A stretch of DNA of 64,000 nt, taken from positions 5,146,001 through 5,210,000 of the forward strand of contig OZ024752.1 of the NCBI GenBank assembly GCA_964016885.1, read 5' to 3'. Under the pieces are notes generated by a model, which was given only the letters and a program-made list of their open reading frames with translations, searched no databases and was not told where the DNA came from. This stretch comes from Eledone cirrhosa (taxonomy: Eukaryota). Position numbers and translations under genes: made by a program. Below are positions 1,588 to 51,335 of the stretch, piece after piece (position 1 is the stretch's first letter; every line of letters begins with the position of its first letter).

Positions 1588-1882
1588 GTATATATATATA
1601 TATGTGTATATATTTATATATATATATATATAGAGAGAGAGAGATATAGAATATTTACGTATTGAGAGAGAGAAAAGGAGGGATAGGTGATACATGTAGT
1701 TATTTGCCAAATAACGTATGCAGAGGGTGCTCAATACTAGTGCCGGCAGTGTTAAATATTAGAAGTGTTACCTAAAGAAGTGGGTGAGAGAATTAGCAGA
1801 GCGTAAGCACATGGAGAAGTAAAATATAGGACAACAGATCGTTAAAACATGTTTATTTAAATAAACATGTTTTAACGATCTG

Positions 1883-5351: not shown

Positions 5352-6118
5352 TCATCATCATCATCATCATCAACGTTTAACGTCCGTGTTCCACGCTTGC
5401 ATGGGTTTGGACAGGGGTAGTCCCACTTGAGGCAAGAGTGATTGTCTTGCTCGCATAGGACTGTCTGGCAGGTTTTCTACAGTTGGATGCCCTTCCTAAC
5501 ACCAACCACATTTACGGTGTGGGTCTGGGAGGTTTTTACCGTGTTGCCTACACGGCCACATTACAGCGTGGACTGTGTGTTTTTTTGTCGTGACACCTAC
5601 AGGATCTCATTTGTTTCAGCCTGGATGGCGCGGCACCAACATAACTTTACATAGAACGGGGTGGGGTGGATGGGGTGGGGGTGGGACGGGTGTATTTTGT
5701 TAGAGATGCCTACTGGCTGTAGTAGGTTTTACTATGTATTTAGGTAAGGCGGGTCTTCTCTGTTACTGAGTACCGCCAAAGGTCTCGGTCCAGTGACATT
5801 GTCTTGGAGAGGTGTAAGTGTGTGATGTCGGAGTTTATCAGCTCGTCCCAGGTTTTTCTGGGTCTGCCTACTCCGTGGCTACCGTCTATCTTTATTGCCC
5901 TGCACTTTGTTATACAGCTGTCGTCTTTCATGCGCATCACGTGACCATGCCAACGTAGCCTTCTCTCGAGTAAACAACATCTGATCCCTCTTATTTCTAA
6001 TTTTTTACTTAGTTCGTTTATGCTTTGCCGTTTATGCTTTCCTCTCTAGTCTGCGTATATCCTCTGCACACAATGCCTAGGTCTCACTGCCATGCAACAT
6101 TGCTGTTCGTATGCAGGA
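5352..6118 (-). mobile_element. 5'-truncated RTE LINE (subfamily of the 47817 element)
   Basis: 3' UTR and C-terminal coding homology, tail, internal deletion near 6035. Confidence 0.9.
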
Positions 6119-6158
6119 TGTATATATATGTATATATATGTATATGTATATATATGTA

Positions 6159-6210
<52 letters not shown>

Positions 6211-6333
6211 GGAGGTGAGTTTTATTGTAGTACAATAAAGCAATGCAGATATCGGATAAGAAGCACTCTACAGTTTGTGGGACTGGAGTATGCATAATAT
6301 AAGATCAAAAGATGGTTAAAGGAGTTCAATATA

Positions 6334-6400
6334 TTTTATTATGCGCATTTCAAAAACAAACATCATCAAACAATAATATTTGTGTTTTCATCAGATAAAA
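6334..6400 (-). ncRNA. Type I hammerhead ribozyme motif (inverted copy)
   Basis: Exact reverse complement of 6527-6593 within the 340-bp palindrome. Confidence 0.8.
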
Positions 6401-6526
6401 CAGGAGAACATGATATGAAGGCTAAAAAAACACTTGTTGATAGTGCAGTTTTAAATCAACATATATGTTGATTTAAAACTGCACTATCAACAAGTGTTTT
6501 TTTAGCCTTCATATCATGTTCTCCTG

Positions 6527-6593
6527 TTTTATCTGATGAAAACACAAATATTATTGTTTGATGATGTTTGTTTTTGAAATGCGCATAATAAAA
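6527..6593 (+). ncRNA. Type I hammerhead ribozyme motif
   Basis: TTTTAT-CTGATGA-[AAACACAAATATTAT/ATGATGTTTGTTTTT stem II]-GAAA-TGCGCA(palindromic stem III)-TA-ATAAAA; stem I TTTTAT/ATAAAA; AUA cleavage triplet. Confidence 0.8.
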
Positions 6594-6643
6594 TATATTG
6601 AACTCCTTTAACCATCTTTTGATCTTATATTATATATATATAC

Positions 6644-6674
<31 letters not shown>

Positions 6675-6680
6675 TGTATA

Positions 6681-6916
<236 letters not shown>

Positions 6917-6943
6917 ATACATATATATATATATATACATATA

Positions 6944-6989
<46 letters not shown>

Positions 6990-7025
6990 ATACATATATA
7001 TATATATATACATATATATATGTAT

Positions 7026-7058
<33 letters not shown>

Positions 7059-7062
7059 ATAC

Positions 7063-7348
<286 letters not shown>

Positions 7349-7406
7349 TATATATGTATATATATATATATATATATATACATATATATATGTATATATA
7401 TATATG

Positions 7407-7454
<48 letters not shown>

Positions 7455-18390: not shown

Positions 18391-18577
18391 GGTTCCCAGA
18401 GTGCATTTCGACCAATCAACCAAGGATATGGTCATCATGGTGGGAGTGGATCAAGTGATAGTTGCTTGAAACCAGACATGGGAAGTAGTGACACTGATAA
18501 TAGTAGACCAAATACAGACATCCTTATGGATCATGAAATAGCCAGTCCTGGTAGTGACAGCGGAAGTTACACAGCAG
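18391..18577 (+). CDS. robo: Robo (Roundabout) cytoplasmic-domain coding exon
   Basis: Acceptor ttctgtttgttttgtag; open frame GSQSAFRPINQGYGHHGGSGSSDSCLKPDMGSSDTDNSRPNTDILMDHEIASPGSDSGSYTA; donor CAG|GTTGGT in phase 1 that joins in frame (G+AT=Asp) to the exon at 23636. Confidence 0.8.
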
Positions 18578-18714: not shown

Positions 18715-21700
18715 TGGTCTGTGTGTATCAGGTTTACAATAGGTACACTGTATCCCTGTGTGTATCTGGTTTATGATAGGTACACTGTATCTCTGTGTGT
18801 ATCAGGTTTACAATAGGTACACTGTATCCCTGTGTGTATCTGGTTTATGATAGGTACACTGTATCTCTGTGTATCTGGTTTACAATAGGTACACTGTATC
18901 TCTGTGTATCTGGTTTATGATAGGTACACTGTATCCCTGTGTGTATCAGGTTTATGATAGGTACACTGTATCCCTGTGTGTATCAGGTTTATGATAGGTA
19001 CACTGTATCCCTGTGTGTATCAGGTTTATGATAGGTACACTGTATCCCTGTGTGTATCTGGTTTATGATAGGTACACTGTATCTCTGTGTCTATCAGGTT
19101 TATGATAGGTACACTGTATCCCTGTGTGTATCTGGTTTATGATAGGTACACTGTATCCCTGTGTATCTGGTTTATGATAGGTACACTGTATCTCTGTGTA
19201 TCTGGTTTATGATAGATACACTGTATCCCTGTGTGTATCTGGTTTATGATAGGTACACTGTATCTCTGTGTATCTGGTTTATGATAGGTACACTGTATAC
19301 CTGTGTGTATCTGGTTTATGATAGGTACACTGTATCTCTGTCTCTATCTGGTTTATGATAGGTACACTGTATTTCTGTCTCTATCTGGTTTATGATAGGT
19401 ACACTGTATCTCTGTCTCTATCTGGTTTATGATAGGTACACTGTATCTCTGTGCGTATCTGGTTTATGATAGGTACACTGTATCTCTGTGTATCAGGTTT
19501 ATGATAGGTACACTGTATCTCTGTGTATCAGGTTTATGATAGGTACACTGTATCTCTGTGTGTATCAGGTTTATGATAGGTACACTGTATCTCTGTCTCT
19601 ATCTGGTTTATGATAGATACACTGTATCTCTGTGTATCTGGTTTATGATAGGTACACTGTATCTCTGTGTATCAGGTTTATGATAGGTACACTGTATCTC
19701 TGTCTCTATCTGGTTTATGATAGGTACACTGTATCTCTGTGTATCAGGTTTATGATAGGTACACTGTATCTCTGTCTCTATCTGGTTTATGATAGGTACA
19801 CTGTATCTCTGTGTATCAGGTTTATGATAGGTACACTGTATCTCTGTCTCTATCTGGTTTATGATAGGTACACTGTATCTCTGTGTATCAGGTTTATGAT
19901 AGGTACACTGTATCTCTGTGTATCAGGTTTATGATAGGTACACTGTATCTCTGTGTGTATCAGGTTTATGATAGGTACACTGTATCTCTGTCTCTATCTG
20001 GTTTATGATAGGTACACTGTATCTCTGTGTATCAGGTTTATGATAGGTACACTGTATCTCTGTGTATCAGGTTTATGATAGATACACTGTATCCCTGTCT
20101 CTATCTGGTTTATGATAGGTACACTGTATCTCTCTGTGTATCAGGTTTATGATAGGTACACTGTATTCCTGTGTATCTGGTTTATGATAGGTACACTGTA
20201 TCTCTCTGTGTATCAGGTTTATGATAGGTACACTGTATCCCTGTCTCTATCTGGTTTATGATAGGTACACTGTATCTCTGTGTATCAGGTTTATGATAGG
20301 TACACTGTATCTCTGTGTATCAGGTTTATGATAGATACACTGTATCTCTGTGTGTATCAGGTTTATGATAGGTACACTGTATCCCTGTGTATCAGGTTTA
20401 TGATAGGTACACTGTATCCCTGTGTATCAGGTTTATGATAGGTACACTGTATCTCTGTGTGTATCAGGTTTATGATAGGTACACTGTATCTCTGTGTATC
20501 AGGTTTATGATAGGTACACTGTATCCCTGTGTATCAGGTTTATGATAGATACACTGTATCTCTGTGTATCAGGTTTATGATAGGTACACTGTATCTCTGT
20601 GTATCTGGTTTATGATAGGTACACTGTATCTCTGTGTATCTGGTTTATGATAGGTACACTGTATCTCTGTGTATCTGGTTTATGATAGGTACACTGTATC
20701 CCTGTGTGTATCAGGTTTATGATAGGTACACTGTATCTCTGTGTATCTGGTTTATGATAGGTACACTGTATCCCTGTGTGTATCAGGTTTATGATAGGTA
20801 CACTGTATCTCTGTGTCTATCTGGTTTATGATAGGTACACTGTATCCCTGTGTGTATCAGGTTTATGATAGGTACACTGTATCTCTGTGTATCAGGCTTA
20901 TGATAGGTACACTGTATCTCTGTGTATCTGGTTTATGATAGGTACACTGTATCCCTGTGTGTATCAGGTTTATGATAGGTACACTGTATCTCTGTGTATC
21001 TGGTTTATGATAGGTACACTGTATCCCTGTGTGTATCAGGTTTATGATAGGTACACTGTATCTCTGTGTATCTGGTTTATGATAGGTACACTGTATCCCT
21101 GTGTGTATCAGGTTTATGATAGGTACACTGTATCTCTGTGTCTATCTGGTTTATGATAGGTACACTGTATCCCTGTGTGTATCAGGTTTATGATAGGTAC
21201 ACTGTATCTCTGTGTATCAGGTTTATGATAGGTACACTGTATCCCTGTGTGTATCAGGTTTATGATAGGTACACTGTATCTCTGTGTGTATCAGGTTTAT
21301 GATAGGTACACTGTATCTCTGTGTGTATCAGGTTTATGATAGGTACACTGTATCTCTGTGTCTATCTGGTTTATGATAGGTACACTGTATACCTGTGTGT
21401 ATCTGGTTTATGATAGGTACACTGTATCTCTGTGTCTATCTGGTTTATGATAGGTACACTGTATCCCTGTGTGTATCAGGTTTATGATAGGTACACTGTA
21501 TCCCTGTGTGTATCTGGTTTATGATAGGTACACTGTATACCTGTGTGTATCTGGTTTATGATAGGTACACTGTATCTCTGTGTCTATCTGGTTTATGATA
21601 GGTACACTGTATACCTGTGTGTATCTGGTTTATGATAGGTACACTGTATCTCTGTGTCTATCTGGTTTATGATAGGTACACTGTATCCCTGTGTGTATCT

Positions 21701-22897
21701 GGTTTATGATAGGTACACTGTATCTCTGTGTGTATCAGGTTTATGATAGGTACACTGTATCCCTGTGTGTATCAGGTTTATGATAGGTACACTGTATCTC
21801 TGTGTCTATCTGGTTTATGATAGGTACACTGTATACCTGTGTGTATCTGGTTTATGATAGGTACACTGTATCTCTGTGTCTATCTGGTTTATGATAGGTA
21901 CACTGTATACCTGTGTGTATCTGGTTTATGATAGGTACACTGTATCTCTGTGTCTATCTGGTTTATGATAGGTACACTGTATCTCTGTGTGTATCTGGTT
22001 TATGATAGGTACACTGTATCTCTGTGTCTATCTGGTTTATGATAGGTACACTGTATCTCTGTGTGTATCAGGTTTATGATAGGTACACTGTATCTCTGTG
22101 TGTATCAGGTTTATGATAGGTACACTGTATCTCTGTGTCTATCTGGTTTATGATAGGTACACTGTATACCTGTGTGTATCTGGTTTATGATAGGTACACT
22201 GTATCTCTGTGTCTATCTGGTTTATGATAGGTACACTGTATCCCTGTGTATCAGGTTTATGATAGATACACTGTATCTCTGTGTCTATCTGGTTTATGAT
22301 AGGTACACTGTATCTCTGTGTATCTGGTTTATGATAGGTACACTGTATCTCTGTGTATCTGGTTTATGATAGGTACACTGTATCTCTGTGTATCTGGTTT
22401 ATGATAGGTACACTGTATCTCTGTGTCTATCTGGTTTATGATAGGTACACTGTATCTCTGTGTGTATCTGGTTTATGATAGGTACACTGTATCTCTGTGT
22501 CTATCTGGTTTATGATAGGTACACTGTATCTCTGTGTATCTGGTTTATGATAGGTACACTGTATCTCCGTGTATCTGGTTTATGATAGGTACACTATATC
22601 TCTGTGTGTATCTGGTTTATGATAGGTACACTGTATCCCTGTGTGTATCTGGTTTATGATAGGTACACTGTATCTCTGTGTATCTGGTTTATGATAGGTA
22701 CACTGTATCTCTGTGTATCTGGTTTATGATAGGTACACTGTATCTCCGTGAATCTGGTTTATGATAGGTACACTGTATCTCTGTGTGTATCTGGTTTATG
22801 ATAGGTACACTGTATCCCTGTGTGTATCTGGTTTATGATTGGTACACTGTATCTCTGTGTTTTTGTTTTATGATAGGTACACTGTATCTCTGTGTGT
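18715..22897. repeat. Intronic tandem satellite, 35/37-bp unit, roughly 115 copies
   Basis: Unit GTATC(T/A)GGTTTATGATAGGTACACTGTATC(T/C)CTGT(GT). Confidence 0.97.
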
Positions 22898-23080
22898 CAT
22901 AAGAGCTGATATAAAGGTTTACCGTCAGGAAGGACATTTGACTGTAAATATTGTTTCAGAAAGAACTTCATGAGAAGCATAAAGCTTATCATAGGGCTTG
23001 CAATACTACTAATCTCTGTTTAACAGGGACAATGGCCTTAAAATGTTTTTTGTGCTGGGTATATATTTTTCTTTCATATA

Positions 23081-23267: not shown

Positions 23268-23635
23268 TATTTTCTTATCTTATATATTTTCTTATCTTAT
23301 ATATTTCCTTATCTTATATATTTTCATTTTATATTTCCTTATTGTTTCCTTATATATTCTCTTCTATAATTCAAGTTATATTTTGATGTAAATTGTTTTT
23401 CATGAGAGTTCCTAATATAATGATTCTCAGGAAGAAATCTGGAGAGGCATGGGCTCTGCCAGTCTTTAAAATGGCCAAGAAATGCCATATGTCAATACAG
23501 TGCCTCTACGACTCTATTAGGAATTACAGGACCATACATATATGCATATTCTATTGTATAATTCAAGTTATATCATGAGAGTTCCTGATATTGTGATTCA
23601 ATGATTTTTTTTTTCTTTTTTGCCTTCTGTTTCAG

Positions 23636-24329
23636 ATGAAACTGGTATGCCAATTAAAAGAGGTAGACGTCTTTATAAAACTTGTGGTAATATTGGAAAA
23701 CAGCCGTTAGTAAACTGGGCAGAATTACTGCCTCCTCCCCCTGAACATCCACCTCCTTGTGAAATGATATCGCCAGACTCACCAATGGGCACCCTCCATC
23801 GCAACATCCAGACTATGAATGGCGGGGGTCCTATATCACCCGTCTCCAAAATCTCGGCATGTTCATGTCCCATTCAGTATAGTCAAGGAGGTGTGTATGG
23901 CAGAAACAATCCCTATTCAGATTCAGAGCAAAATAAATACGCTAAAATTCGGGAGAATCATCCATGTTCCATGAAAACTCTTAACCAACTTCGAACTCAG
24001 TCCCCCTGTGGTGATATGAGAACATACTCTCCTCGTACAGTCAACTGCATGCAGCACAACTGTATGGGCCATGCCCCGCGATGCTGTCATAGTGACTGTG
24101 AACAAAGCATTTATGGTCCGTCTCTCAAAGGTTATCGCCTACCTTCTGAAGGCGAAGGAGATTACCGTTATATTAGCAGTGATCCCGAGCGTGGTCCTAC
24201 ACCTCCCATCAGGATGCACTCTTCAAATATGATGGATTTGGCTGATGGACCCCACATGGACAGAGCTTGCCAATCTTCTTTACCAAGTTTGGCAAATGAA
24301 CGTATGCAATCACCTCTCTATCCAGCAAG
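23636..24329 (+). CDS. robo: Robo coding exon containing the CC2 motif
   Basis: Long polypyrimidine tract plus ttcag acceptor; encodes ...KQPLVNWAELLPPPPEHPPP..., matching the Robo CC2 (Ena/VASP-binding) motif NWADLLPPPPAHPPP; donor AAG|GTATGT in phase 2. Confidence 0.88.
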
Positions 24330-25796
24330 GTATGTCTCCATATTTCTTTCATATATTCTACTCTTTCTAATCTTTGGCTCTATTTGAACCACATATGTTT
24401 TTTTGATTTGCAGGTGACTGTGATATTATTATATATTATTATCATTAATATTATTATTATTATTATTGTTGATTAAATAGACCCCAGCGCATTACTGGTG
24501 CTTTATTTTATCAATCCTGTAAGGATGAAAGGCAAAGCTAACCTCGGTGGGATTTGAACTCAGCCCCTTTATGTTCTGAGTTCAAATCCCACTGAGGTTA
24601 GCTTTGCCTTTCATCCTTACGGGGTTGATAAAATAAAGCACCAGTAATGCACTGGGGTCTATTTAATTGACTTTCCCCTCTTCTCAAATTTCTGGCCTTG
24701 TGCCTATAGTAGAAATAATAATAATAATAATTATTATTATTATTATTATTATTATCATCTCTCTCTAATTATTGTTCCTCACAGTATTAGTAAAAAAAAA
24801 ACTTTAATGGAGGGAAATAAACTGTATTGCACACATCAGTCTTCTTTAATTTTATGATTATTTATTGCTGGTGCCATCCTACCATTAACCATTTTATCAT
24901 TAATTCCATTTGATCATGTAGAAATACTAACTGAAAGAAAGAATCAAAAGTTTAAGAAATAAAGTCATTGTTTTTTGTTGTTTTTTTTTTGTTTTTTTTT
25001 CATCCTATGTACTTCTGTCAGTGTGGTTTATAAAGCACTTAATGCTATAGTTAATAAAACTCTCTCCATGAAGCCATTCTATAAAATAAAGTTTATAATG
25101 TGCAAGAAGAAAATGAGGAAAATACAATAACAATGAGTTATGATAAAGCCACATACAATAGTTAAGATAAAGCCACTTACAATAGTTGTGATAAAGCCAC
25201 ATACAATAGTTGTGAGCATTTTCTGTTAACAACAACCACTGTTCAAAGACCTTTTTTTCTTTTTCTTTTATTTATTTATTTATATTTCGTTTTATCTTTT
25301 ATTTTTATTTTATCTTTACCTTTTCTCATTAAATACTTAATGCCAAATTCTGTAAATGTTACATAGTTGGTCAAATTACTTCTTACTTTACATTTGCCTG
25401 TGTGTCTCTTCTTCCACACCAATAAGCAAGCTGCTCCACTAGCTGGTTTCTAAAGTACCAATCTCTGCTTGATTTACAATTAGAGAGAGAGAGAGTGGAG
25501 AAAAGAGAAAAAAAGAGTGTGAGGAAGAAAGAGAAAGAGAGATGAAATGTAAATGAAAGACAGATAAGAGTGATGGGAATAGATTAAGTTTAGTTTTCTG
25601 AAAAATCCCTGAGTGGGTAAAGAATGATTTTACAAATTTAAAAAAAGGTAAGCTAAGCTGATGAAGACCCTGTTCAGAAGTATTTGACAGAAAGAAAGTA
25701 AAAATCCTTATATAAACTATGGTAAGTATCGTAGTACTAATAGTAGAAATTGCTAGAACAGTATTAGTTAATGTACTGTTGGTAGTAATTTCATTT

Positions 25797-45701: not shown

Positions 45702-45943
45702 ATGTAGGAGGTGAGTTTTATTGTAGTACAATAAAGCAATGCAGATATCACACATCAATCTTAAATTACTTTTCATATGTTGATTTAAAACTTCACTATT
45801 CACAAGTGTTTTTAACCTTCATATCATGTATCCCTATTTTATCTGACGAAAACGCAACTGTCATCTCATGATGATATTTGTTTTTGAAAAGCGCATAATA
45901 AAATACTTGGAACTCTTTTAACCATCTTTTGATCTTATATTAT
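45701..45943 (+). mobile_element. Penelope-like pseudo-LTR fragment (same family as 6207-6633)
   Basis: Inverted 3' end (atgtaggaggtgagttttattgtagtacaataaagcaatgcagatatc) joined to a forward hammerhead-bearing arm; inside (AT)n. Confidence 0.55.
45837..45903 (+). ncRNA. Type I hammerhead ribozyme motif (diverged paralog of 6527)
   Basis: TTTTAT-CTGACGA-AAACGCAACTGTCATC-TCAT-GATGATATTTGTTTTT-GAAA-AGCGCA-TA-ATAAAA; one stem III mismatch. Confidence 0.65.
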
Positions 45944-46164
45944 GTGTATATATATATAGGTATATATATATGTATATGTATATATGTATAGATATATATG
46001 TATATATATATGTATATATATATATGTATACATATATATATATATATGTATATATGTAAATATATGTATATATATGTATATATATATATATGTATATATG
46101 TAAATATATGTATATATATGTATATATATATATATGTATATATGTAAATATATGTATATATATG

Positions 46165-47816: not shown

Positions 47817-50800
47817 TATTCACCTCGTGGACGAGAATGCGAGCACTCCTCTTTGTTTCGTCCGCGGATGGCTAACATAACCCTATCTCCCCCCGCCCCC
47901 ACCACCCCCACCCTCCAAACACAACCCCAAACTTCAGAGTTGGTACCATAAATGTAGGCACCCTAAAGGGTCGCGCTAACGAGGTTGTAGAAATGCTTGA
48001 ACGTAAGGAGGTCGATGTTTGTTGTATTCAAGAGACCAGGTGGAGGGGTGGGTCTGCTAGATTCATTGAGGGTAAAAAACGATGTTATAAGCTTTTCTGG
48101 GTGGGAAACGACGATGGGCTGGGTGGAGTAGGAATCATGGTAGCAGAAAAGTGGGCAGATAAGATAATAGACGTTAATAGAGTGAACGACAGAATAATTA
48201 AAATAAGACTTGTCCTCAATAGAACTACGGTGACAGTAATATCTGCGTACGCACCCCAATCCGGACTGCCCGGCACTATAAAAGACAGATTCTATGAGAC
48301 ACTGTTGCTAACTACCCCCCAAATATCTGACAGTGACTATATAATTATTGCAGGCGACCTAAATGGTCACGTTGGACAACATTGTGACGGCTACGACGAA
48401 ATCCATGGCGGCTATGGGTTTGGTACTAGAAATGAGGAAGGCTCCAGAATCCTGGAATTCTGTGATGCAAATAACCTAACTATCTGTAACACTAACTTCA
48501 AAAAACGTGACAATCACCTGATCACCTATAGATCCGGGGAACACACAAGCCAGGTAGATTATATCCTTACCAGAAGACGTGACAGAGTGTCTGTTGTAAA
48601 CACTAAATCCCTCCCCCATGAAGAATGCACCTCCCAACATAGACTGATAATTAGCGACCTCATAGTCAGGACGAGACGTACTCGACAGCAGAAGAGGACT
48701 ATCCTCAGGAGGAAAATATGGAAACTAAAGGACCCCACAGCCAGAAATAAATTTCAAAGCATATTACTTGATGCTTTCGACAGTAAGGAACTAGAATCGG
48801 ACAATATAGAGGGACAGTGGGAATTTCTGAAAGCAAACCTGCTGTTGGCGACAGACGAAGTCTGTGGCTGGAGCAGGCCGGTAGGCAGGAGGAGAGTAAC
48901 ATGGTTGTGGAACAGTAGGGTGGAGGGGTCAATTAAGGCCAAAAAGCAGGCTTGGAAAGTATGGCGGGATGGGGGAAGTAGAGTAGACTATCAAGTGGCC
49001 AGGAGAGCAGCTAGGAGAGAAGTGTACTTAGCAAGAAGGGAAGCTGAGGAAAGAAAGTTCAAGCATGTTCTACAACGCGATGACCAAAAACGTGAGGTGT
49101 TCAGGATTGCTAGGCAATGCGTCAAGGAAAACCGTGATATTGTCGGGGAGAAGTGTGTACTTAACGATGATGGCATACTTGCCATCACCGACACTGATAA
49201 GAAGGTAGCTTGGAAGTGTCACTATGAAAGGCTACTAAATGAGGAGAATAAATGGGAGAAAGACAGTCTCCCCCATATCGACCCAATAGAGGGACCAGCA
49301 GTGTTAGTCGAGGGGAGTATAATAAGTAAGGCAATCAAGGATATGAAGACGGGTAAGGCGGCTGGGCCTTCGGAAATAGTTGCTGAGATGCTGAAGGCAT
49401 CTGGCACGGTGGGACACACCATGGTCACCCGCATAGTTAACCAAGTCGTACAGAATGGGGTTGTTCCAAAGGACTGGCATAGCAGCATCATCGTTAACTG
49501 TTATAAGGGTAAAGGAGATGCCCTAGATAGGAGTAACTATAGAGGCATTAAATTAATCGACCAGGTTATGAAGGTCACGGAAAAAGTAATAGCGCAACTA
49601 ATCAGAGAGAGAATTGACCTAGAGAAATGCAGTTCGGGTTTGTGTCAGGCAAAAGCACCACAGACGCTCTTTTCATAGTACGACAACTACAGGAGAAGTA
49701 CCTAGCTAAAGGTAAACCCCTCTACTTAGCTTTTGTCGACCTGGAGAAAGCCTTCGACAGAGTCCCCCGCTCCATTATCTGGTGGGCTCTTAGAAAACTA
49801 GGCGTTGACGAATGGCTTGTGAGGGCTATACAAGCCATGTATAAAGAAACAGTCAGCAAGGTTAGAATTAACAACGAATATAGTGAAGAGTTTAGCGTAA
49901 AAGTTGGCGTCCATCAGGGCTCTGTTCTCAGCCCCCTACTATTTATTATTGCCCTTCAGGCTATAACAGAGGAGTTCAAGACAGGCTGCCCATGGGAACT
50001 CCTATACGCAGACGACCTGACACTCATAGCGGAATCAATGGCCGAGCTAGAGAAGAAATTCCAAACATGGAAGCACGGCCTAGAGTCAAAAGGACTTAAA
50101 ATTAACCTGGCTAAGACCAAAGTTCTAGTTTGTAGGAAAGAAAACAAGGCGGCGGTCTCTTCTGGGAAATGGTCGTGCTCGGTGTGTAGGAAAGGCGTAG
50201 GTAGAAACTCCATTTTATGTCCTAAATGCAAAGTATGGGTGCATAAAAGATGTAGTGGGATCACAGGTAAGCTAACTAAGAACATAGATTTTACATGTGG
50301 CCGGTGTTCTGGTGCAATAAGTAGCAGCAAGTGCCCACAAAATACTAGCTCTTTCAATTGCACAGAGGGTTCTATAGAAATAGTGGACAGCTTCCGCTTC
50401 CGTTACCTGGGCGATAAAATCAGCAGTGGGGGAGGGTGCTCTGAAAGTACTGTAGCTAGAGTCAGAACTGGTTGGAAAAAGTTCAGAGAGCTTATACCAC
50501 TATTAGCTGCTAAAGGGTTCTCCCTAAAAATGAAAGGCAGGTTGTACGATGCCTGCATACGAACAGCAATGTTGCATGGTAGTGAGACCTGGGCATTGTG
50601 TGCAGAGGATATACGCAGACTAGAGAGGAACGAAGCTTGCATGCTCCGCTGGATGTGTAACAGTAATATACGTGAACGGCAAAGCATAAACGAACTAAGG
50701 AAAAAATTAGAGATAAGAGGGATCAGATGTTGTTTACTCGAGAGAAGGCTGCGTTGGTATGGACACGTGATGCGCATGAAAGTCGATAGCTGTATAACAA

Positions 50801-51335
50801 AGTGCAGGGCAATAAAGATAGACGGTAGCCACGGAATAGGCAGACCTAGAAAAACCTGGGATGAGCTGATAAACTCCGACCTCACACACTTACACCTCTC
50901 CAAGACAATGTCACTGGACCGAGACCTTTGGCGGTACTCAGTAACAGAGAAGACCCGCCTTGCCAGTAGGCATCTCTAACAAAATACACCCCGTCCCGCC
51001 ACCACCCCCACCCCATCCTCACCACCCCGTTCTATGTAAAGTTATGTTGGTGCCGCGCCATCCAGGCCGAAACAAATGAGATCGTGTAGGTGTCACAACA
51101 AAAAAACACACAGTCCACGCTGTAATGTGGCCGTGTAGGCAACACGGTAAAAACCTCCCAGACCCACACTGTAAATGTGGTTGGTGTTAGGAAGGACATC
51201 CAACTGTAGAAAACCTGCCAGACAGTCCTATGCGAGCAAGACAATCACTCTTGCCTCAAGTGGGACTACCCCCGTCCAAACCCATGCAAGCGTGGAACAC
51301 GGACGTTAAACGTTGATGATGATGATGATGATGAT
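47817..51335 (+). mobile_element. Near full-length RTE-clade LINE (APE endonuclease + reverse transcriptase)
   Basis: EN motifs ([39 protein letters not shown]); RT motifs (AFVDLEKAFDRV, GVHQGSVLSPLLF, LLYADD, YLG); RTE C-terminus ([22 protein letters not shown]); 3' UTR and (GAT)n tail; frameshifts near 47900 and 49625. Confidence 0.95.

What the first reader, a model, noticed from the sequence alone, without database searches (positions are those of the whole stretch)
6294..6633. 340-bp spacerless perfect palindrome with two divergent hammerheads
Seen: the arms are exact reverse complements around 6463/6464. Each carries an intact hammerhead, and the minus-strand arm continues ~87 bp further. 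Perfect identity implies a very recent fold-back event or ongoing homogenisation. If this is inside the Robo transcription unit, it forms a 170-bp dsRNA hairpin that would sequester the ribozyme and be a good ADAR/Dicer substrate. Such palindromes can also extrude cruciforms (inference).
Basis: partly seen in the sequence, partly recalled or inferred. Interest (0 to 1): 0.75.

Follow-up and report, generated by a model that had tools for sequence, protein, structure and literature searches.

The report
Mirror-image Penelope retrotransposon stump, octopus intron
The perfect palindrome with a hammerhead ribozyme motif on each strand is real but ordinary: it is a young, short insertion of a very abundant Penelope-like jumping gene in an octopus Robo intron, one of about 1,750 such mirror-image stumps in this genome, likely made when the element's RNA was copied twice during insertion.

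Summary
The 170+170-bp spacerless palindrome (6294-6633), its two divergent hammerhead motifs and the 87-nt one-sided extension are confirmed, inside a Robo intron. It is not a one-off fold-back. It is a 428-bp insertion of a high-copy Penelope-like element (PLE) with Hydra-clade protein marks: two pseudo-LTR ends head to head in (TA)n. The family has 9,652 exact end tags, 1,753 near-spacerless centres and full-length copies with an RT/endonuclease ORF; two other loci carry the identical 428 bases. Inverted pLTRs, a one-sided tail and hammerheads are published PLE features, and this scan noted the same kind of stump before on other octopus DNA. Perfect arms reflect youth: no sign of homogenisation, and reads from another study show the same joint type at other loci. 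Of some interest for mechanism: 94 of 106 head-to-head pairs join one long end to one short end, 5 of 40 short insertions have arms sharing no sequence, and a G absent from the template often precedes the fixed inner start. This favours two separately primed cDNAs running off a capped RNA end over the published self-priming idea (inferred). Cleavage, editing and any effect on Robo are untested.

The parts
6206..6633 (.). whole 428-bp insertion of a Penelope-like element: two pLTR-derived ends head to head
   Evidence: same 428 bases at L197 and L199; one difference at L198 and L200
6294..6463 (-). long arm: pLTR positions 1-170
   Evidence: 92-93% to both pLTRs of full-length copy L047
6206..6293 (-). 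87-88-nt tail (pLTR positions 171-258, end 'A'); in full-length copies it continues into the 5' UTR and ORF
6464..6633 (+). short arm: pLTR positions 1-170, ending at end 'B'
6460..6467 (.). centre joint CATATATG: both arms reach the fixed pLTR start and overlap by an AT microhomology
   Evidence: sequence; identical 42-nt centre at 127 loci; related centres at 1,753 loci
6525..6595 (+). type I hammerhead motif: stem I 6525-6532/6588-6595, core 6533-6539 and 6576-6578, stem II 6540-6575, palindromic stem III 6579-6586, predicted cut after A6587
   Evidence: activity untested
6332..6402 (-). mirror copy of the hammerhead motif
6117..6205 (.). left (TA)n-type target microsatellite
6634..7454 (.). 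right (TA)n-type target microsatellite
18391..18576 (+). next Robo coding exon downstream (aa 1068-1129 of P0001); the nearest located upstream coding exon is at G000:C12:5025366-5025566, so the insert is intronic
45702..45944 (.). second, older insertion of the same family: 48-nt end A inverted against a pLTR with about 30 nt of 3' UTR ending at end B
   Evidence: 85% to the arm

Best explanation
The palindrome is a short, young insertion of an abundant Penelope-like retrotransposon with Hydra-clade protein marks, made of two pseudo-LTR ends joined head to head in a TA microsatellite of a Robo intron, and it was likely built by two cDNAs primed separately on the two cut target strands. Shown: family membership, copy number, full-length relatives, the one-long-end/one-short-end rule, variable inner truncation with a fixed hot spot at the pLTR start. 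Inferred: the endonuclease cuts (TA)n on both strands; reverse transcription starts at two sites 87 nt apart (ends A and B); when both start in the 5' pLTR they run off the RNA's 5' end, likely a capped transcription start, and their self-complementary ATAT ends anneal, which gives a spacerless palindrome. The arms are identical because the event is recent. The hammerheads are passengers of the pLTR, predicted to need a dimer and to be buried in a hairpin here; no effect on Robo is expected.
For: 9,652 exact copies of the 41-nt end tag; 11,147 of the pLTR-start 22-mer, only 4,533 preceded by the exact 3' UTR; 1,753 near-spacerless centres, 127 with this exact centre, 7 with the same central 148 nt. 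[quoted passage not shown] 94 of 106 head-to-head pairs are A+B; 14 of 15 centre-selected loci have the tail on exactly one arm. In 87 tag-selected loci, 40 are short A+B insertions: 17 with both arms reaching the pLTR start, 11 with only A cut, 3 with only B cut, 9 with both cut; in 5 the arms share no sequence. Base before the fixed start, genome-wide: G 2,111, T 1,581, A 570, while the template has C and the partner strand is 19% G. Published: inverted pLTR with one-sided tail (PMC3846280, PMC8557442), two RT start sites and cutting of both strands in vitro (PMC11167929).
Against: Pfam found no family in either ORF; the RWK motif reads RWI; no tree was built. Tail is 87 nt against the 30-40 nt usually reported; element is about 3.7-4.0 kb against 'generally <3 kb' for Hydra. 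Samples were picked by exact patterns on the first contigs (young copies; tag-selected loci hold an A end by design). Part of the G excess can be read otherwise: as the partner arm ending one base into the UTR (5 of the G-selected centres) or as GATA microhomology; the direct test is small (7 of 15, p=0.01). No RNA data were laid, so the transcription start is not shown. No read bridged this exact locus.
Confidence: 0.9

Rival explanations
1. Same element, but the mirror arm arises by self-priming (fold-back) on an antisense template, as proposed for rotifer Penelope elements.
For: PMC3846280 (passages) proposes this for head-to-head junction palindromes. The two arms of a locus are nearly always much closer to each other than to the median other copy, and the pLTR start is self-complementary.
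Against: 5 of 40 short insertions have arms with no shared sequence, and in many others the short arm reaches further upstream than the long arm while only the long arm has the tail, so neither arm can be a copy of the other. Centres carry fillers of varied length.
Confidence: 0.2
2. Assembly or library fold-back artefact at this locus.
For: Arms are perfect, the flanks are long TA repeats, and no read or contig bridged the locus.
Against: The centre and both outer ends fall on the family's fixed positions; 37 of 53 near-spacerless pairs have arms that differ; raw reads of another study show the same joint type (97 reads cut at 6238 and continuing with the inverted arm start).
Confidence: 0.03
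3. Arms are kept identical by ongoing homogenisation (hairpin or cruciform repair).
For: 16 of 53 near-spacerless pairs are perfect.
Against: 8 of 17 pairs with spacers of 100 bases or more are perfect too; divergence 1.47% vs 0.63% (p=0.11); shared private changes are not enriched (14:79 vs 5:14, p=0.31). The unit is identical to copies on other contigs.
Confidence: 0.04
4. A selected RNA device regulating Robo (ribozyme switch, ADAR or Dicer substrate).
For: Intronic on the Robo sense strand; predicted 168-bp hairpin; core bases kept across 205 arm copies.
Against: Youngest subfamily, one of about 1,750 alike; 11.8 kb from the nearest exon; hammerhead conservation is explained by selection on the active element.
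Confidence: 0.03

Closest known systems
Insertion units of endonuclease-positive Penelope-like elements with inverted 5'-truncated pLTR and one-sided tail (Arkhipova 2013 PMC3846280; Craig 2021 PMC8557442)
   Same: Head-to-head pLTRs with a junction palindrome, tail on one end only, 5' truncation, (TA)n target, hammerhead in the pLTR.
   Different: Here the whole insert is just two pLTR ends; the tail is 87 nt, not 30-40; such stumps number about 1,750 in one genome.
Hydra clade of PLEs, incl. Hydra-1_Obim (PMC8557442, section 11 and supplement)
   Same: DKT, CxCx5C linker, CxxC and CxH at the endonuclease end, no CCHH, C-terminal endonuclease, hammerhead, (TA)n insertions.
   Different: RWI for RWK; longer element; a different family from Hydra-1_Obim by eye (protein and hammerhead differ; five short exact words of this family gave 0 hits in the supplement).
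Poseidon element of green anole, in vitro (Frangieh 2024, PMC11167929)
   Same: Two reverse-transcription start sites whose interval is the genomic tail; AT-rich target; both strands cut and extended.
   Different: There the start sites lie inside the ORF; here ends A and B lie about 85 and 170 nt upstream of the ATG. In the two parts read, that paper does not treat the inverted junction.
PLE-associated type I hammerheads with small palindromic helix III (Cervera and de la Pena 2014, PMC4209133)
   Same: Conserved core, long helix II, short palindromic helix III suited to dimer formation.
   Different: Stem II closes with A-U, not the conserved G10.1-C11.1; triplet is AUA.

Membership tests
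EN+ Penelope-like element | single ORF with RT and GIY-YIG-type endonuclease in full-length copies | tested here: met
   775/808-aa frames with FDI..Y and YRDDG motifs and a C-terminal LIY..YFG/R/E/N region; aligns by eye with Hydra references. Pfam gave no hit.
EN+ Penelope-like element | pseudo-LTRs in partial tandem flanking the ORF | tested here: met
   L046, L047, L048
EN+ Penelope-like element | inverted 5'-truncated copy and tail at one end | tested here: met
   94 of 106 pairs A+B; tail 87 nt
EN+ Penelope-like element | hammerhead motif within the pLTR | tested here: met
   pLTR positions 62-132
EN+ Penelope-like element | target-site duplication | tested here: inconclusive
   both flanks are TA repeats
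Hydra clade | DKT in place of DKG | tested here: met
   HSDKTNN
Hydra clade | CxCx5C linker; CxxC and CxH around the conserved E and N; no CCHH | tested here: met
   CNCPVKNKC, CNLC, CLH
Hydra clade | N-terminal RWK motif | tested here: inconclusive
   RWI here; of 12 aligned relatives 8 have RWK or SWK and 4 have RWE, RWM or RIK
Hydra clade | (TA)n insertion preference | tested here: met
   nearly all A and B ends run into TA repeats
Hydra clade | placement in the clade by RT phylogeny | not tested
   no tree with reference proteins was built
Type I hammerhead ribozyme | conserved core C3 U4 G5 A6 G8 A9, G12 A13 A14, A15.1-U16.1, H17 | tested here: met
   all present; 0 of 11 core sites have a recurrent variant against 26 of 144 other sites (p=0.21, not significant); free position 7 varies T/C
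Type I hammerhead ribozyme | three stems supported by variation | tested here: inconclusive
   7 of 7 recurrent stem variants keep pairing, all one-sided; no double compensatory change; stem III too short for a monomer
Type I hammerhead ribozyme | match to an Rfam hammerhead model | tested here: not met
   a library score, not a structural criterion
Type I hammerhead ribozyme | self-cleavage | not testable with these tools
   needs in vitro transcription
Non-LTR retrozyme | head-to-tail tandem array of hammerhead monomers | tested here: not met
   two ends head to head, no array

The most novel reading that the evidence does not exclude
This family records the Penelope insertion mechanism thousands of times over: each insertion pairs one cDNA started at site A with one started at site B on opposite target strands, both copied from the same source; the pLTR's 5' edge is the capped transcription start (extra G from copying the cap), and run-off cDNAs anneal through their ATAT ends to seed about 1,750 intronic and intergenic hairpins. 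That would replace self-priming as the origin of PLE inverted repeats.
Probability: 0.5. Interest if true: 0.45.

Novelty: new member of a known kind. Interest (0 to 1): 0.2.

Why it matters
The locus itself matters little: it is one passenger stump among about 1,750. The family matters modestly, because how PLE inverted repeats and tails form is still open (PMC8557442 section 15 says so) and this young, high-copy family gives junction statistics that separate twin priming from self-priming. It is also a large predicted source of perfect dsRNA in octopus introns, relevant to RNA editing if transcribed (untested).

Tried and rejected
DNA search of the own genome with the arm found no candidate because common words are skipped. 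Rfam: nothing at gathering score in the window; only chance-level non-hammerhead hits at E<=10. Pfam: no family in two ORFs. Sequencing runs: no RNA holder listed, so editing, small RNAs and the transcription start were not examined. Locus-specific bridging by reads or contigs failed at the TA repeat. One search was unusable (a TA repeat inside the reference); repeated with masking. Search of earlier findings by sequence gave nothing. MITE or DNA-transposon reading rejected: inner ends vary and full-length copies encode RT. Retrozyme reading rejected: no tandem array. Paper searches for 'Penelope + twin priming + inverted' (2 unrelated listings) and 'Penelope-like, pLTR, untemplated, cap' (listings only) showed no paper stating the twin-priming or cap-G reading for PLEs; subscription papers (e.g. 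Arkhipova 2006, Schostak 2008, not seen) may do so.

Full report
Observation. The arms are exact reverse complements for 170 bases on each side of 6463/6464. The minus-strand unit continues 87-88 nt to 6206; both outer ends run into TA repeats. A hammerhead core with stems I-III lies at + 6525-6595 and mirrored on the minus strand. The exon at 23605-24387 is 99% identical to a protein that its source names roundabout homolog 2 of an octopus; further exons lie at 18391 and 26014 and upstream at G000:C12:4971289-5025566. The insert is therefore intronic, 126.7 kb after the last located upstream exon and 11.8 kb before the next; residues about 1018-1067 were not placed with confidence, so the intron may be subdivided.

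It is a repeat. The 41-nt end tag occurs exactly 9,652 times in the genome, the pLTR-start 22-mer 11,147 times. The exact 42-nt centre occurs at 127 loci, centres with 0-9 bases between the arm starts at 1,753 loci, and the central 148 bases at 7 loci; of the 4 other such loci fetched, 2 have all 428 bases identical and 2 differ by one base. A second, older copy lies at 45702-45944.

The parent element. Extending tagged loci gave full-length copies: pLTR plus tail, 5' UTR, an open frame of 775 or 808 residues stop to stop, about 1.2 kb of 3' UTR, and a second pLTR (L046, L047). [quoted passage not shown] Pfam found nothing, but 37 relatives were found at 28-41% identity; the alignment with 12 of them shows DKT, CxCx5C, CxxC and CxH, the marks of the Hydra clade given in PMC8557442 section 11. 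RWK reads RWI. The Hydra proteins printed in that paper's supplement match these motifs by eye, while Hydra-1_Obim is a different family. No tree was built, so 'Hydra clade' rests on motifs.

Anatomy of insertions. Among 106 distinct head-to-head pairs in the loci fetched, 94 join an end at pLTR position about 258 (A, with tail) to an end at about 163-170 (B); 3 are A+A, 1 is B+B, 8 are internal or cut off. Part of this sample was chosen by the A tag; in the 15 loci chosen by the centre alone, 14 have the tail on exactly one arm and none on both. In 87 tag-chosen loci (first listed hits on contig C1; 5 of the first 92 left out as overlaps of neighbours), 40 are short A+B insertions: 17 with both arms reaching the pLTR start, as here, 11 with only A cut short, 3 with only B, 9 with both; in 5 the arms share no sequence. 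The other 47 are long, solo or run out of the stretch; many long ones are also A+B with kilobases between. Genome-wide only 4,533 of the 11,147 pLTR starts follow the exact 3' UTR, so the pLTR start is a strong stop.

Why the arms are perfect. Of the 94 pairs, 74 overlap by 80 bases or more; 4 with spacers of 13-99 were left out of the comparison. Near-spacerless pairs (53) differ at 1.47% of sites, 16 perfect; pairs 100 bases or more apart (17) differ at 0.63%, 8 perfect (p=0.11); shared private changes are not enriched (p=0.31). So youth, not homogenisation, explains it, within the limits of a small pattern-selected sample. Against an artefact: most palindromic copies have slightly different arms, and raw reads of another study (X24) include 97 reads cut at 6238 and continuing with the inverted arm start; contigs of X1, which may be the source sample, show many such joints to 6463. 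These come from other loci; this locus was not bridged.

Mechanism. Published: PLE insertions often carry an inverted 5'-truncated copy and a one-sided tail (PMC8557442 passages and sections 11, 15; PMC3846280 passages); an anole PLE cuts and extends both target strands and starts reverse transcription at two sites whose interval is the tail (PMC11167929, parts 1-2 of 4 read). Inferred here: A and B are the two start sites; one cDNA is primed on each strand; both are copied from the same source, since arms resemble each other more than the median copy; cDNAs begun in the 5' pLTR run off the RNA end and anneal through ATAT, the commonest centre being a 4-base overlap (13 of 35 arm starts) and this locus a 2-base overlap. 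Self-priming, proposed in PMC3846280, cannot give arms that share no sequence. The base before the fixed start is G 2,111 times, T 1,581, A 570 (the remainder, 6,885, C as in the template); in unselected non-palindromic joints G is 7 of 15 against about 18% expected (p=0.01). An extra G is what copying a 5' cap leaves (recalled from L1 work), and the start fits an initiator consensus (recalled, weak). Some of these G's can instead be the partner arm ending one base into the UTR, or GATA microhomology, so this step is suggestive only.

The hammerhead. Across 205 arm copies no core site has a recurrent variant, free position 7 varies, and 7 of 7 recurrent stem variants keep pairing, all one-sided; 12 aligned copies show no double change and do not beat the shuffle. 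Stem III is self-complementary (dimer helix -12.5 kcal/mol), like PLE hammerheads described as dimer-dependent and weak in PMC4209133 (passages). In Robo pre-mRNA only the + arm motif is sense, and it is predicted to be locked in a 168-bp hairpin. Rfam does not recognise it.

Other papers seen: bioRxiv 10.64898/2026.07.22.740005 (passages; supplements closed). A search for octopus + Penelope + hammerhead listed only PMC8557442 and a squid genome paper as relevant (listings). Earlier notes of this scan describe the same kind of stump in this and other octopus genomes; they are unchecked and are not counted as support.

Verdict. A real feature, a new family member of a known kind of insertion. 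Interest 0.2; the junction statistics could test PLE insertion models.

Noticed in passing
window 35970-36190: Another hammerhead-like motif (- strand 36049-36009) amid short inverted repeats beside a TA tract; unrelated in sequence to this family, probably a stump of another PLE family.
   Followed up: partly
window 37395-37458 (+) and 55372-55320 (-): Two more hammerhead-like motifs; the first has a palindromic stem III and a GUC triplet.
   Followed up: no
window 38230-38360: About 130-bp near-perfect palindrome (54 bp perfect); a partial copy lies beside the insertion in L031.
   Followed up: no
window 1835-1882 and 1876-2151: 48-bp palindrome next to a mariner-like transposase fragment (motif recalled).
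   Followed up: no
window 47876-50979 (+): Nearly whole RTE-type LINE frame (endonuclease and RT, two frames); many 3' fragments of the family elsewhere in the window.
   Followed up: no
window 19600-23000 and 31700-32600: Minisatellite arrays (seen as repeated translations) inside Robo introns.
   Followed up: no
L047:5068-7494 (-): The element's ORF has an asparagine-rich insert of about 70 residues before the CxC linker that relatives lack, recalling the N-rich inserts of rotifer Penelopes in PMC3846280.
   Followed up: no
L114, L132: Two insertions of the family within 1-3 kb of each other in TA tracts, suggesting repeated targeting of the same microsatellites.
   Followed up: no
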